4,106 nt of DNA from a virus (IMGVR_UViG_2541047433_000013); one strand, 5' to 3'; counted from the stretch's first letter, positions 1 to 3,775 are shown. Notes: generated by a model not told the origin, from the sequence alone. Numbers and translations: made by a program.

Positions 1-85
1 GGTCTTTCCTCGTTACCAGTGCCGTCACTATGACGGTTAAACAGATGACGATCAGGGCGATTAACATCGCCTTTTGCTGCTTCAT
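1..85 (-). CDS. hok: Hok/Gef-family type I toxin, 5' portion only (28 N-terminal codons; gene continues past the left edge)
   Basis: Reverse complement of 1..85 translates to MKQQKAMLIALIVICLTVIVTALVTRKD with ATG at 85..83. From memory this closely matches the N-terminal transmembrane region of HokD/RelF and Gef. AAGGAG Shine-Dalgarno at 100..95 sits 9 nt upstream of the ATG. Not in the ORF track because it is partial. Confidence 0.8.
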   Translation of the reverse strand, partial: MKQQKAMLIALIVICLTVIVTALVTRKD

Positions 86-158
86 AGCCTGCTTCTCCTT
101 GCCTTTCGGCACGTAAGAGGCTAACCTACATGTGTTCAGCATGGATTGAGCCTCAGAT

Positions 159-193
159 TAATGTTAAGCGTCTTGCAGGACGCGTAATGTTAA
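159..193. repeat. 9-bp direct repeat TAATGTTAA (159..167 and 185..193) flanking a 5-bp inverted repeat GCGTC/GACGC (168..172 and 179..183, loop TTGCAG)
   Basis: Read directly from the sequence. It lies in the predicted hok mRNA leader, or equally in the predicted antisense (Sok-like) region. Confidence 0.4.
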
Positions 194-260
194 CTGGGGC
201 TTTTCTCTATCTGCCGTTGGTGTTCATGCCCGAGGCAGATAGCCTCAAGCACCCGCAGCA

Positions 261-375: not shown

Positions 376-933
376 TCATTGATTCACCTCCTGCGGCGGT
401 TCTGGTAGCGACATCCAGTGGGTTGCTTGCCTAAGATCATTACCCGGACTAACTGCTATACCTCCGCGCCGGAACGTGCCTCCGAGATAGCGTGCGGAAT
501 ATATTAATGGCCCAGCCTCGCTATCGATATTCATCGAAATAAGCACGTTCTGGCTCTTTTCAGGCATTCGCTCAGTACAGCTTATCCAGCCATCCAGAGT
601 TATCGGAGATCTGGTTGACGTTTCCGAGATTTCCCGAAAATTGTTGGTTGACGAATTCTTATTTTCCCGAAAGTTTCCGGCCTGAAGCATGGCGACGCGG
701 CAGGCGTTCCAGCCATCAGCATATGTTTTAGTTACACCGTCGAGATGGCAGGTAAGCAAATCCATTTCATCAGGCACTACCATTGCTATCGGCTCTGCTT
801 CCAGTGATGCCAGCGCGATACGAAACACATTAGCCAGCAGGCTGTCTGAAGACTTGTTATCGTGCGCCGAGTCGCTCAGGAAGCCTGTGATGTATGATTT
901 AATCTCCGCGCGTTCTCTGGTAATAGTGCTCAT
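376..933 (-). CDS. Phage protein, 185 aa, with a C-terminal DUF551-like domain
   Basis: ORF in the track. AAGGAAA Shine-Dalgarno 7 nt upstream of ATG 933..931. The start lies 1 nt after the stop of the upstream 72-aa ORF. The C-terminal part (DGWISCTERMPE...THWMSLPEPP) resembles the DUF551 signature as I remember it; family assignment is from memory. Confidence 0.7.
   Translation of the reverse strand: MSTITRERAEIKSYITGFLSDSAHDNKSSDSLLANVFRIALASLEAEPIAMVVPDEMDLLTCHLDGVTKTYADGWNACRVAMLQAGNFRENKNSSTNNFREISETSTRSPITLDGWISCTERMPEKSQNVLISMNIDSEAGPLIYSARYLGGTFRRGGIAVSPGNDLRQATHWMSLPEPPQEVNQ
611..676 (-). repeat. Imperfect tandem duplication of a 33-bp unit inside the 185-aa gene
   Basis: Units 611..643 and 644..676 share ggttgacg and tttcccgaaa blocks, about 24 of 33 positions identical by my hand alignment. 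In the protein this is an 11-residue repeat (NFRENKNSSTN / NFREISETSTR) between the N-terminal region and the DUF551-like domain. Confidence 0.4.
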
Positions 934-934
934 A

Positions 935-1153
935 TCAGTTTTCCTTATACGGATTAATTTTATTGTGCAGTGCGCTGAATGATTCCCATGTCACATCGGT
1001 ATATAGCTCAATAACTGGTTCAAATGTCCTTCCAATTATCCAGACCAGTAATAGCGGGGATATCGGTATCATCAACACTATAAACAGAATGAAAAACAGA
1101 AACTCTGTTGTTCTGCTCTTTCGTGGGTAATTTTTTTCTAAATAATGTTTCAT
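935..1153 (-). CDS. Small single-pass membrane protein, 72 aa, function unknown
   Basis: ORF in the track with ATG at 1153..1151. It has a basic N-terminus (RKSR) followed by a hydrophobic stretch (FLFFILFIVLMIPISPLLLVWIIG). The gene and its upstream region are visibly AT-rich compared with the neighbouring genes. Confidence 0.6.
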   Translation of the reverse strand: MKHYLEKNYPRKSRTTEFLFFILFIVLMIPISPLLLVWIIGRTFEPVIELYTDVTWESFSALHNKINPYKEN

Positions 1154-1159
1154 TTCTTA

Positions 1160-1181
1160 CCGCCCTTTCGGGCGGCCTCCT
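1160..1181 (-). promoter_or_regulatory. Structured translation-initiation region: AGGAGG Shine-Dalgarno, then a 6-bp G:C stem with GAAA tetraloop, then UAAGAA-AUG
   Basis: In RNA sense: AGGAGG (1181..1176), CCGCCC-GAAA-GGGCGG (1175..1160), UAAGAA, then AUG (1153..1151). Read directly from the sequence. Confidence 0.35.
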
Positions 1182-1276
1182 GATGTTCTGAGGGTGCAGG
1201 AATCCCTCCGGTTAAGGATTTAATAAAAATCATTTCTGATTTAAATTTTCAGTGTTTAGTTGTTGGTTTATAGCCT

Positions 1277-3112: not shown

Positions 3113-3775
3113 TCAAATAAAACCAGCTGCCTTCCGGCGTTCGTATTCCTGTTTCAGCCGTTCAATTGGCGTTGGCCCTTGCGGGTGTTTCGCCCCTTCC
3201 AGTTGTCGTCGCACTGGCGGAACACTCATCCCGTTACCAACATGCTTTGCCCATTTCGTCAGTTGCCGTTCCGCAAGTCGTTTTAACTCACCTTGCGTCA
3301 TCTGGCGCTCAATCCCTCTGGTACGCATTTCGAGGCAGATGTGGTACAGCACAGGCTGTGGCCACGGGTATTTATCACTCCCGTCGTATCGCCAGGATTC
3401 ATTGCGCCAGCGCCGGTACTCTTCCATCACGGCATCCACCGTAAGACCAAATGGATTTGCCCCACTCTCCGAAATCAGCGCAACAAACTCAGCCAGGTCC
3501 GGGGGCCACGTTTCACCCGCCCGGCAGCGGTCCATGCACTGACGGCACACCAGACGGATTTGCTGTTCAGTCATCGCACCAATCTGGGCAATCCAGAGCT
3601 TCGAAGGTGCGGCCCCGTTCTTCTGAGTCCAGCGGTTCGAATACACCTCCCCCATGAGCTCCCACAGCTTCCAGGCCGTTTCCGTTGCTGATAAATCCGT
3701 TGTCACGTTCCCACTGTTCGCGTGCAGCCCGGATTTCCTGAACTGCCCGTGATGCCGTGCCACCTGATGCTGCAT
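3113..3775 (-). CDS. Lambda-P-like replication protein (DnaB helicase loader)
   Basis: ORF in the track. The C-terminal half aligns by eye with lambda P as I recall it (conserved YPW, ELRR/ELKR and PVxxQL blocks; MTEQQ versus TMEQV). AAGGGGGG Shine-Dalgarno 5 nt upstream of ATG 3775..3773. Alternative starts are ATG 3655 and ATG 3574. Confidence 0.8.
   Translation of the reverse strand: MQHQVARHHGQFRKSGLHANSGNVTTDLSATETAWKLWELMGEVYSNRWTQKNGAAPSKLWIAQIGAMTEQQIRLVCRQCMDRCRAGETWPPDLAEFVALISESGANPFGLTVDAVMEEYRRWRNESWRYDGSDKYPWPQPVLYHICLEMRTRGIERQMTQGELKRLAERQLTKWAKHVGNGMSVPPVRRQLEGAKHPQGPTPIERLKQEYERRKAAGFI

What the first reader, a model, noticed from the sequence alone, without database searches (positions are those of the whole stretch)
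935..1276. AT-rich moron-like unit: small membrane protein with a hairpin between its Shine-Dalgarno and start codon, plus a 27-codon upstream ORF ending on that start codon
The 72-aa gene and its 123-bp upstream region are much more AT-rich than the flanking genes, which suggests a separately acquired unit. The AGGAGG Shine-Dalgarno is 22 nt from the AUG, too far unless the intervening CCGCCC-GAAA-GGGCGG hairpin folds and brings it to about 6-8 nt. A small ORF (ATG 1233..1231, MIFIKSLTGGIPAPSEHQEAARKGGKK) runs through the Shine-Dalgarno and the hairpin and stops at TGA 1152..1150, overlapping the start codon (AAATGA). This looks like a translational coupling or attenuation device controlling a possibly toxic membrane protein, for example one involved in superinfection exclusion, abortive infection or lysis timing. 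The upstream ORF has only a weak Shine-Dalgarno, so it may not be translated.
Basis: partly seen in the sequence, partly recalled or inferred. Interest (0 to 1): 0.6.

Follow-up and report, generated by a model that had tools for sequence, protein, structure and literature searches.

The report
Hairpin-split ribosome binding site in prophages
A small prophage membrane-protein gene is preceded by a strong ribosome-binding sequence separated from its start codon by a very stable RNA hairpin; the same 66-base leader sits in front of many unrelated genes in about 43% of E. coli genomes, while the proposed upstream mini-gene is an inconsistent by-product.

Summary
The sequence features are real. 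The 72-aa gene (935-1153, minus strand) is a Pfam DUF4014 small membrane protein. AGGAGG (1181-1176) lies 22 nt from the AUG. The hairpin GCCGCCC-GAAA-GGGCGGU (1176-1159, -14.4 kcal/mol) fills that gap and leaves 5-6 nt, the same geometry as the split ribosome binding site of phage T4 gene 38.

The leader is not specific to this gene. Its 66-nt core occurs in 2,312 of 5,426 complete E. coli genomes (3,196 copies) and is never annotated. In 229 fetched copies it precedes at least six unrelated protein families, and the start codon always lies 5-10 nt after the stem. DUF4014 genes in other phages have ordinary Shine-Dalgarno sites.

The 27-codon upstream ORF is not a conserved part of the device. 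Its ATG is ACG in close relatives, and the commonest leader type has an in-frame stop and no start codon. I found no promoter, no terminator, no Rfam family and no compensatory covariation.

Best reading: a portable hairpin-bridged ribosome binding site at a cassette junction of lambdoid prophage accessory-gene arrays. It is a new member of a known kind and of moderate interest.

The parts
935..1153 (-). 72-aa gene of the DUF4014 family. It encodes a small single-pass membrane protein with a basic N-terminus, one hydrophobic segment and an acidic C-terminal tail.
   Evidence: Pfam PF13198, E 1e-24, 87 bits against a cutoff of 23. PHROG 1832, E 1e-44. 122 homologues, mostly named DUF4014. Family alignment with 27 invariant columns.
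1176..1181 (-). Shine-Dalgarno sequence AGGAGG, 22 nt upstream of the AUG.
   Evidence: The GGAG core is invariant in all 20 distinct leader variants aligned.
1159..1176 (-). Hairpin 2: GCCGCCC-GAAA-GGGCGGU, with six G-C pairs, one G-U pair and a GAAA tetraloop. It fills the gap between the Shine-Dalgarno sequence and the AUG.
   Evidence: -14.4 kcal/mol, pairing probability about 1.0. Most stable local hairpin in the window. Inverted repeat I2. 94% of cells paired across variants, but no compensatory double changes.
1151..1158 (-). 5-nt spacer AAGAA and the AUG start codon. With the hairpin folded, the effective Shine-Dalgarno-to-AUG spacing is 5-6 nt.
   Evidence: In 229 module copies the start lies 6-11 nt after GGGCGG, which is 5-10 nt after the stem.
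1190..1208 (-). Hairpin 1: GAGGG-AUUCCUGCA-CCCUC. Its 5' arm is an orphan Shine-Dalgarno-like GGAGG. In other prophages the corresponding GGAGG serves as the ribosome binding site of a 70-aa gene inserted at this point.
   Evidence: -7.2 kcal/mol. 99% paired across variants, but broken by GGATGG in 13 copies. Sakai Sp10 arrangement.
1157..1222 (-). Conserved 66-nt leader core (AATCCTTAACC, hairpin 1, AGAACATC, Shine-Dalgarno sequence, hairpin 2), shared by thousands of prophages.
   Evidence: 2,312 of 5,426 complete E. coli genomes, 3,196 places, no annotated feature. Alignments.
1223..1276 (-). AT-rich left part of the intergenic region ('type A' leader), from the stop codon of the upstream 103-aa gene to the conserved core.
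   Evidence: An alternative 'type B' left part (CTGAATAATTAAAT...) is found in most other copies.
1150..1233 (-). 27-codon upstream ORF (MIFIKSLTGGIPAPSEHQEAARKGGKK). It is judged to be a fortuitous reading frame and not part of the device.
   Evidence: Present in the window. The ATG is ACG in EDL933 and related copies. Type B leaders have an in-frame TAA and no start codon. The ATG form does occur in 345 genomes. No Pfam hit.

Best explanation
The intergenic leader carries a split (noncontiguous) ribosome binding site. The strong Shine-Dalgarno sequence AGGAGG is 22 nt from the AUG of the DUF4014 gene. The very stable GNRA hairpin between them is looped out, so the Shine-Dalgarno sequence sits an effective 5-6 nt from the start codon. 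The 30S subunit can then initiate as on an ordinary site.

The Shine-Dalgarno-plus-hairpin unit is not a regulator of this particular gene. It is a portable junction module of the accessory-gene (ea/nin-type) arrays of E. coli lambdoid prophages. Different cassette genes, which mostly lack a Shine-Dalgarno sequence of their own, are joined 5-10 nt after the stem and use it for translation.

Shown: the anatomy, the stability, the conservation, and the sharing among unrelated genes. Inferred: that the hairpin-bridged Shine-Dalgarno sequence is the functional initiation site, and that the hairpin insulates the site from whatever coding sequence follows. The 72-aa product is a small DUF4014 membrane protein of unknown function, probably with its N-terminus in the cytoplasm.
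For: - **Geometry:** 22 nt between Shine-Dalgarno sequence and AUG. The hairpin is -14.4 kcal/mol with pairing probability about 1.0, leaving AAGAA before the AUG. This matches T4 gene 38, where 22 nt is reduced to 5 nt and mutations that break the structure lower translation (PMC3014915 section 29; PMC7297116 section 9).
- **No alternative site:** there is no other Shine-Dalgarno-like sequence between the hairpin and the AUG, and no start codon at normal distance from AGGAGG.
- **Sharing:** 229 copies of the module precede at least six protein families with no BLASTP similarity to one another. The start is always 5-10 nt after the stem.
- **Two upstream contexts:** the Shine-Dalgarno-plus-hairpin unit keeps its place behind either the long leader or the stop codon of a 70-aa gene.
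- **Distribution:** 2,312 of 5,426 E. coli genomes.
- **Conservation:** the leader core is more conserved (per-site diversity 0.01-0.035) than the adjacent DUF7167 coding sequence (0.04-0.13).
- **Direction of substitutions:** changes in the stem are mostly C-to-U in the 5' arm, which keep G-U pairing in the mRNA-sense strand only. There are 16 pair-preserving one-sided changes against 9 broken cells.
- **Strand:** the hairpin is more stable on the mRNA strand than on the complement, -15.5 against -12.6 kcal/mol.
- **Contrast:** the other genes of the window, and DUF4014 genes elsewhere, use contiguous Shine-Dalgarno sites.
Against: - There are no experimental data for this element.
- There is no compensatory covariation: 0 of 12 pairs change on both sides, and the measures do not exceed the shuffle control.
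- Several natural variants carry a mismatch in the stem (L036, L091, L106 and L229).
- One downstream family (MEITKE) has its own GGAG after the hairpin, so the bridged Shine-Dalgarno sequence is not always needed.
- The high conservation could reflect recent spread by recombination rather than selection.
- In thermodynamic ensembles the Shine-Dalgarno sequence is often predicted to be paired with upstream C-rich stretches. This is no more than in shuffled leaders.
Confidence: 0.55

Rival explanations
1. The conserved leader is mainly a recombination linker. It would be a homologous junction at which lambdoid prophages swap accessory-gene cassettes, with the hairpin and Shine-Dalgarno sequence carried along without any special role in translation. 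This is compatible with the main explanation and may be the reason the element is so widespread.
For: At least six downstream families and at least six upstream contexts share 93-100% identical junction DNA. Homology breakpoints fall at the edges of the element. The element lies in both the nin-like region (window, EDL933) and the ea region (mEp460). Tandem copies occur within one array. It is restricted to Escherichia and Shigella, which suggests recent spread.
Against: Most of the joined genes have no Shine-Dalgarno sequence of their own, so they need the upstream AGGAGG. The start codon is held within 5-10 nt of the stem. Stem substitutions are biased towards changes that keep pairing in the sense RNA.
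Confidence: 0.2
2. The hairpin is an mRNA processing or stability element. RNase E would cut in the AU-rich leader, and the stable stem-loops would protect the downstream cistron, or the upstream one at its 3' end. Differential decay would uncouple expression of the accessory cassette from the replication genes.
For: This is the only long intergenic gap (123 nt) in an otherwise overlapping operon. An AU-rich single-stranded stretch is followed by two stem-loops. In the second context the hairpin lies 10 nt after the stop codon of the 70-aa gene.
Against: It does not explain the conserved AGGAGG placed immediately 5' of the stem, or the fixed short distance to the next start codon. The stem is too short to be an RNase III substrate. 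There is no 5'-end or 3'-end mapping data.
Confidence: 0.1
3. The hairpin is a translational operator. A phage or host RNA-binding protein would recognise the GAAA-loop stem at the ribosome binding site and repress or activate whichever cassette gene follows.
For: The GNRA loop is almost invariant (GAAA in 17 of 20 variants). The position at the ribosome binding site resembles known operators (thrS, rpmE; PMC7297116). The repeated pairing of the 70-aa gene with the hairpin in arrays could hint at a partner.
Against: No candidate binding protein was identified. The 70-aa protein has no Pfam family, it looks acidic by eye, and it is absent from the window's arrangement. The loop is no more conserved than the rest of the element.
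Confidence: 0.08
4. Translation of the 27-codon upstream ORF would open the hairpin and terminate on the AUGA overlap, coupling or attenuating translation of the membrane protein.
For: The ORF and the AUGA overlap exist in the window. The ATG-containing leader is 100% identical over 60 nt in 345 E. coli genomes. In an O26 strain with a different downstream gene the frame again ends in AAAATGA.
Against: The ATG is ACG in EDL933 and many close relatives. The commonest leader type has an in-frame TAA and no start codon, yet keeps the Shine-Dalgarno sequence and hairpin. There is no Shine-Dalgarno sequence before the upstream ATG. Nothing suggests selection on the peptide, and it has no Pfam hit. 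A stop near the start codon is expected in A/T-rich initiation regions.
Confidence: 0.05
5. The hairpin is a transcription terminator or an antitermination (nut/put-like) site of the early right operon, analogous to tR2 of lambda.
For: It lies after the replication genes and before the nin-like region and the antiterminator gene. It is a G+C-rich stem with a GNRA loop, and a loosely boxA-like CCTTAAC lies upstream (my reading of the sequence against remembered boxA consensus, not a test).
Against: No U-tract follows the stem on either strand, and the terminator scan is negative. The same module also lies in the ea region of mEp460. No Rfam family matches.
Confidence: 0.02

Closest known systems
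Split (noncontiguous) ribosome binding sites of bacteriophage T4 genes 38 and 25
   Same: The Shine-Dalgarno sequence is too far from the AUG (22 nt in gene 38, 27 nt in gene 25), and a stable intervening hairpin shortens the spacing to 5 or 11 nt. Here 22 nt is shortened to 5-6 nt. These are also phage genes, and the hairpin acts positively (PMC3014915 section 29; PMC7297116 section 9).
   Different: There is no sequence relationship. The T4 structures belong to one gene each. This module is shared by at least six unrelated gene families and thousands of prophage copies. Function here is inferred and was not tested.
Noncontiguous translation initiation regions with operator hairpins (E. coli thrS, rpmE)
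   Same: A stable stem-loop lies inside the translation initiation region and is tolerated by the ribosome (PMC7297116).
   Different: In thrS and rpmE the hairpin separates an upstream enhancer from the Shine-Dalgarno sequence and binds an autoregulatory protein. Here the hairpin lies between the Shine-Dalgarno sequence and the AUG, and no binding protein is known.
Pfam DUF4014 / PHROG 1832 small phage proteins (933W gp07, ES18 gp39, epsilon15 gp46, g341c gp23)
   Same: The 72-aa product is a full-length member of the family.
   Different: In 933W and g341c the gene lies in the ea region behind an ordinary contiguous Shine-Dalgarno sequence, without the hairpin leader. The names 'acetyltransferase inhibitor' and 'released from the phage upon host infection' are database annotations that I could not trace to an experiment.
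Morons and mosaic module boundaries of lambdoid phages
   Same: A compositionally distinct gene is present in some related prophages and absent from others, and it is flanked by sharp homology breakpoints.
   Different: As the term is used in PMC4104026 (citing Juhala et al. 2000), morons are DNA insertions tolerated downstream of a promoter. As I recall the original definition, they usually carry their own promoter and terminator, and neither was found here. The gene is translated from a shared junction module inside an operon.

Membership tests
Split ribosome binding site (T4 gene 38/25 type) | The Shine-Dalgarno sequence lies too far from the start codon for direct use (more than about 15 nt) | tested here: met
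   22 nt between AGGAGG and AUG
Split ribosome binding site (T4 gene 38/25 type) | The intervening sequence folds into a stable hairpin that brings the Shine-Dalgarno sequence to about 5-11 nt from the AUG | tested here: met
   Seven-pair stem, -14.4 kcal/mol, pairing probability about 1.0, leaving 5-6 nt. Most stable hairpin in the window. This is a prediction only.
Split ribosome binding site (T4 gene 38/25 type) | No other Shine-Dalgarno sequence at canonical distance from the start codon | tested here: met
   The spacer UAAGAA has no Shine-Dalgarno-like run. The only G-rich stretch, GGGCGGU, is locked in the stem.
Split ribosome binding site (T4 gene 38/25 type) | Stem-breaking mutations lower translation and compensatory changes restore it | not testable with these tools
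   Needs reporter fusions or toeprinting
Split ribosome binding site (T4 gene 38/25 type) | The structure is conserved among relatives | tested here: inconclusive
   94% of stem cells are paired in 20 variants, with 16 wobble-preserving one-sided changes. No pair changes on both sides, and there is no excess over shuffles.
Pfam DUF4014 (PF13198) | Full-length match to the family profile above the gathering score | tested here: met
   87.2 bits against a cutoff of 23.2, residues 1-72 on profile positions 1-72
Moron (autonomous inserted transcription unit) | Own promoter upstream of the gene | tested here: not met
   No sigma-70-like site in the leader of the window or of L003. This is a consensus scan only.
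Moron (autonomous inserted transcription unit) | Own terminator downstream of the gene | tested here: not met
   The next gene starts 1 nt after the stop codon (933 against 935). No terminator-like site.
Moron (autonomous inserted transcription unit) | Composition different from the neighbours, and presence/absence among related phages | tested here: met
   35.6% GC against 50.2% downstream and 43.3% upstream. The slot is occupied by other genes in related prophages.
Leader-peptide / upstream-ORF coupling or attenuation device | The upstream ORF, with its start codon, is conserved wherever the device occurs | tested here: not met
   The ATG is absent (ACG) in EDL933-type copies. Type B leaders have an in-frame TAA and no start codon. 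The ATG form is present in 345 genomes.
Intrinsic terminator | G+C-rich stem followed directly by a U-tract | tested here: not met
   The stem is followed by AAGAAAUG on the sense strand and CCUCCUGAUG on the other strand. Scans are negative.
Known RNA families (Rfam 15), including prophage sRNAs | Match to a curated covariance model | tested here: not met
   Only sok (80-254) passes. The region 1097-1210 gives a chance-level hit with E 0.88. No Hfq-CRAC peak is listed at the Sakai Sp10 copy.

The most novel reading that the evidence does not exclude
The Shine-Dalgarno-plus-GNRA-hairpin unit could be a dedicated, portable expression adaptor that defines cassette slots in the accessory-gene arrays of E. 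coli lambdoid prophages. Any gene recombined in 5-10 nt behind the stem would be translated without needing its own ribosome binding site. The structured junction would insulate initiation from the incoming coding sequence. It might also act as a common operator, so that all cassettes at such junctions are controlled together. That would be a translation-level counterpart of an integron-type expression platform, present in about 43% of E. coli genomes and so far unannotated.
Probability: 0.2. Interest if true: 0.65.

Novelty: new member of a known kind. Interest (0 to 1): 0.4.

Why it matters
If the hairpin-bridged site works as inferred, it adds a natural and very abundant example to the few known split ribosome binding sites, namely T4 genes 38 and 25. 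It would also show such a site acting as a shared junction for many genes rather than as a peculiarity of one gene.

In practice, it marks an unannotated conserved element in thousands of E. coli prophages. It explains how cassette genes that lack a Shine-Dalgarno sequence are expressed. It warns annotators against calling ORFs across the leader, as has happened in one Rac phage record. It also offers a compact natural 'insulated' ribosome binding site that could be tested for engineering use. It does not reveal the function of the DUF4014 protein.

Tried and rejected
- **Anti-sRNA idea.** The CA-rich stretch at 1247-1265 recalled the GcvB-target motif of AgvB. AgvB and its relatives lie downstream of PR' and have different sequences, so I dropped this.
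- **Hfq-bound sRNA.** The EcOnc list for strain Sakai has no peak at the Sp10 copy of the element, near 1,933.69 kb. The peaks I checked (EcOnc11, 22 and 24) lie in lysis or tail regions. Only some prophages were checked.
- **Pas sRNAs.** Their reported context is different: 96-99.8% lie next to capsid or tail genes, and pasA, pasC and pasD1 sit next to a holin/lysozyme operon.
- **Rfam.** Nothing beyond sok.
- **Promoter or terminator.** None in the leader, in either the window or the type B locus L003.
- **Conserved alternative fold that hides the Shine-Dalgarno sequence.** Ensembles often pair GGAG with the upstream CCCUC or UCCU. However, 21-26% of leaders with shuffled upstream sequence do the same or more, so this is not significant.
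- **'Three-frame stop' block (CTGAATAATTAA) as a universal stop.** The block has stops in all three frames. In 27 upstream contexts the long ORF used one frame 17 times and a second frame once, and otherwise ended earlier. Support is weak.
- **Covariation.** No compensatory changes.
- **Relatives outside E. coli.** A scan of one genome per species found the leader only in Escherichia and Shigella, plus one contaminated MAG contig. The other hits were chance matches. I ran that scan on genome contigs by mistake, having meant to use viral contigs.
- **Defence function.** No PADLOC match for DUF4014 or its neighbours.
- **'O-polysaccharide acetyltransferase inhibitor' annotation.** It traces to an old epsilon15 gp46 record. 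I could not tie it to an experiment.
- **Literal sequence search of the paper library.** No hits.

Full report
**Setting.** The window is part of the early right operon of a lambdoid (Rac/CP-933-like) prophage of E. coli. All genes run on the minus strand. The order is replication genes (DnaT-like O, P), DUF1627, four small genes, the 72-aa gene, a DUF551 gene and a hok/sok locus. Genes overlap or abut everywhere except for the 123-nt gap at 1154-1276 in front of the 72-aa gene.

**Checking the observation.**
- The ORF lies at 935-1153 on the minus strand.
- AGGAGG is at 1181-1176, the inverted repeat CCGCCC/GGGCGG with a GAAA loop is at 1175-1160, and the ATG is at 1153-1151. Exactly 22 nt separate the Shine-Dalgarno sequence from the AUG.
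- The composite pattern AGGAGG-N6-GAAA-N12-ATG occurs once, against 0.01 expected.
- With the extra G-U pair, the stem-loop GCCGCCC-GAAA-GGGCGGU has a predicted energy of -14.4 kcal/mol and is paired with probability about 1.0 in the ensemble.
- It is the most stable 22-nt fold on either strand of the window. It is also more stable on the mRNA strand (-15.5) than on the complement (-12.6).
- The 27-codon upstream ORF (1233-1150) and its AAATGA overlap with the start codon are present.
- The AT-richness is real but less sharply bounded than stated. The gene is 35.6% GC and the leader 41.5%, against 50.2% for the downstream DUF551 gene. The two upstream genes are 43.3% and 41.3% GC.

**What the gene is.** The product is a full-length member of Pfam DUF4014 (E 1e-24) and PHROG 1832. 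It has 122 homologues at E below 0.001, almost all in E. coli and Salmonella.
- The family alignment shows a basic N-terminus (YPRxS), one hydrophobic segment and a conserved C-terminal tail (LHNK.NPY). By eye this suggests a small single-pass membrane protein with its N-terminus in the cytoplasm (the topology is inferred).
- The window's first residues (MKHYLEK) differ from the family consensus (MxTLFRK) because of a short local frame change.
- The names 'sugar/O-polysaccharide acetyltransferase inhibitor' and 'released from the phage upon host infection' appear in some records. I could not trace either to an experiment.
- No PADLOC defence model matches.
- In 933W and in the P22-like phage g341c the gene lies in the ea region, directly behind the preceding gene, with an ordinary contiguous Shine-Dalgarno sequence (AAGGAG or AAGGGG). 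The hairpin leader is therefore not a property of the DUF4014 family.

**What the leader is.** A BLAST search of the region showed that a segment of about 70 nt (window 1224-1151) occurs on its own in thousands of genomes and in front of other genes.
- The 66-nt core (1222-1157) is found in 2,312 of 5,426 complete E. coli genomes, at 3,196 places and up to four per genome. It never lies under an annotated feature.
- It occurs in six isolated phages. One is mEp460, where it lies in the ea region upstream of int.
- A scan of one genome per bacterial species found it only in Escherichia and Shigella.
- In the 229 copies held in fetched loci, the module AGGAG(G/A)-hairpin precedes at least six protein families with no BLASTP similarity to each other. 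These are DUF7167 (60 aa), DUF4014 (three N-terminal variants), a mosaic MTELTK/MQEIKE group (123-277 aa), MEITKE (174 aa), MLTLKH (43 aa) and, in one unrelated G+C-rich phage contig, a 194-aa protein.
- The start codon lies 6-11 nt after GGGCGG in every case, which is 5-10 nt after the stem.
- Apart from MEITKE, which has its own GGAG, none of these genes has a Shine-Dalgarno-like sequence between the stem and the AUG.

**Two upstream contexts.** In the canonical leader, the Shine-Dalgarno-plus-hairpin unit follows AATCCTTAACC and a first, weaker hairpin (GAGGG...CCCUC, -7.2 kcal/mol). In the second context a 70-aa gene (ECs_1949 family) is inserted. Its own ribosome binding site corresponds to the GGAGG of hairpin 1, and its stop codon is followed by TGTCAGGAGG-hairpin. 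Some prophages carry two such units in tandem with different cassettes behind each. Further upstream the leader comes in two forms. Type A is the window's form. Type B (CTGAATAATTAAAT...) is the commoner form and is joined to at least six different upstream genes.

**The upstream ORF.** The window's ATG at 1233 is ACG in EDL933 and many close relatives. It was the only ATG among 45 distinct variants from viral contigs. It is not unique, however. The 60 nt around it are 100% identical in 345 complete genomes, while 326 others differ at one to three positions. In an O26 strain with a different downstream gene the frame again ends in AAAATGA. Type B leaders, which are the majority, have an in-frame TAA and no ATG, GTG or TTG before the Shine-Dalgarno sequence, yet keep the Shine-Dalgarno sequence and hairpin unchanged. 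No Shine-Dalgarno sequence precedes the upstream ATG. The upstream ORF is therefore a by-product of one polymorphic base in one leader type. It may or may not be translated where it exists, but the conserved device does not depend on it.

**Is the hairpin under selection as RNA?**
- The element is too uniform for a strong test. Across 20 distinct variants, 96% of stem cells are paired, against 41-53% when the partners are slid. No pair changes on both sides, and none of the measures exceeds the shuffle control.
- The direction of the substitutions is suggestive. C-to-U changes in the 5' arm keep G-U pairing only in the mRNA-sense strand. They are frequent and occur at four of five C positions. 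G-to-A changes in the 3' arm, which break pairing, are rare.
- Both one-sided changes of the closing G-U pair turn it into a Watson-Crick pair, A-U or G-C.
- Among copies linked to DUF7167, per-site diversity is 0.01-0.035 in the leader core and 0.04-0.13 in the coding sequence behind it.
- Some variants do carry a stem mismatch, and hairpin 1 is broken in 13 copies.

**Mechanism.** The anatomy matches the split ribosome binding sites of phage T4. In gene 38 a spacing of 22 nt is reduced to 5 nt by an intervening structure, and in gene 25 a spacing of 27 nt is reduced to 11 nt. Mutations that destabilise those structures lower translation (PMC3014915 section 29; PMC7297116 section 9). Here 22 nt becomes 5-6 nt.

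The most economical reading is that AGGAGG pairs with the 16S rRNA, the stem-loop is extruded, and AUG 1153 is placed in the P site. Because so many unrelated genes sit behind it, the unit appears to act as a portable initiation module at a cassette junction. Its stable stem would also stop the Shine-Dalgarno sequence from pairing with whatever coding sequence follows. The anatomy and distribution are shown. The initiation mechanism and the insulation are inferred.

**Alternatives considered.**
- A pure recombination linker explains the spread but not the dependence of Shine-Dalgarno-less genes on the upstream AGGAGG. It is best seen as complementary.
- A processing or stability element, or a protein-binding operator, is possible but untested.
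- A terminator is unlikely, because no U-tract follows on either strand and the scans are negative.
- There is no promoter-like site, so the unit is not a moron in the strict sense.
- No Rfam family matches.
- The element is not among the Hfq-bound prophage sRNAs listed for Sakai at the one copy I could place.
- A conserved fold that hides the Shine-Dalgarno sequence is not supported.

**Verdict.** The hairpin between the Shine-Dalgarno sequence and the start codon is real, conserved and most likely functional. It is a generic, widely shared junction module rather than a control device for a toxic membrane protein, and the upstream ORF is incidental. This is a new member of a known kind of translation initiation site. 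It is notable for its abundance and its portability, and its interest is moderate.

Noticed in passing
window 1-254, minus strand: A hok/sok type I toxin-antitoxin locus. Rfam sok matches at 254-80 (113.5 bits, gathering score 59). By eye, the Hok coding sequence starts at 84 and runs off the window end, reading MKQQKAMLIALIVICLTVIVTALVTRKD.
   Followed up: partly
L139 7440-7720 (Sakai Sp10); L187 and L155; L231 (ArgO145): A 70-aa gene (ECs_1949 family, no Pfam hit) is inserted into the leader between the GGAGG of hairpin 1 and the Shine-Dalgarno-plus-hairpin-2 unit. Gene plus hairpin recur as tandem units with different cassette genes behind each, which gives a repeated-junction array.
   Followed up: partly
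type B leaders, e.g. L003 2495-2510 and L127 2550-2561: The left end of the commonest leader type, CTGAATAATTAA, has stop codons in all three frames. It also forms an AT-rich near-palindrome (CTGAAT-AATTAA-ATTCAG in some copies). Upstream ORFs mostly end at one of these stops.
   Followed up: partly
window 1139-1153 compared with L127 2650-2670: The first five residues of the window's DUF4014 protein (KHYLE) are read in a different frame from the family consensus (xTLFRK). A nearby 1-nt difference restores the frame, and both forms are 72 aa.
   Followed up: partly
L144 about 11454-11500: The exact 25-nt Shine-Dalgarno-plus-hairpin unit also occurs in a quite different, G+C-rich phage contig. 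There it lies 10 nt before a 194-aa ORF (MVTTGYNRML...), outside the usual leader context.
   Followed up: no
L150 and L180 (downstream of the hairpin); L128 and L133: In some copies the hairpin is followed by something other than a start codon. In L150 and L180 it is the 3' end of a reverse-oriented 184-aa ORF 10-12 nt away. In Shigella and E. coli (L128, L133) it is a 228-aa ORF (MTSINIFMTVADFKRPKLEL...) that starts 61 nt downstream. These look like later insertions at the junction.
   Followed up: no
L230 747-929 (phage Rac record MN652886): A variant leader with GGGATGCC creates an ATG directly after the orphan GGAGG. The record annotates a 60-aa 'HP1' that reads through the Shine-Dalgarno sequence and hairpin. 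This is probably an annotation artefact caused by the unrecognised leader.
   Followed up: no
window 376-933 compared with the MTELTK-family proteins behind the leader in other loci: The N-terminal part of the window's DUF551 protein shares the motif LASLEAEPIA with the MTELTK proteins that occupy the cassette slot elsewhere. This points to mosaic N-terminal modules among these accessory proteins.
   Followed up: no
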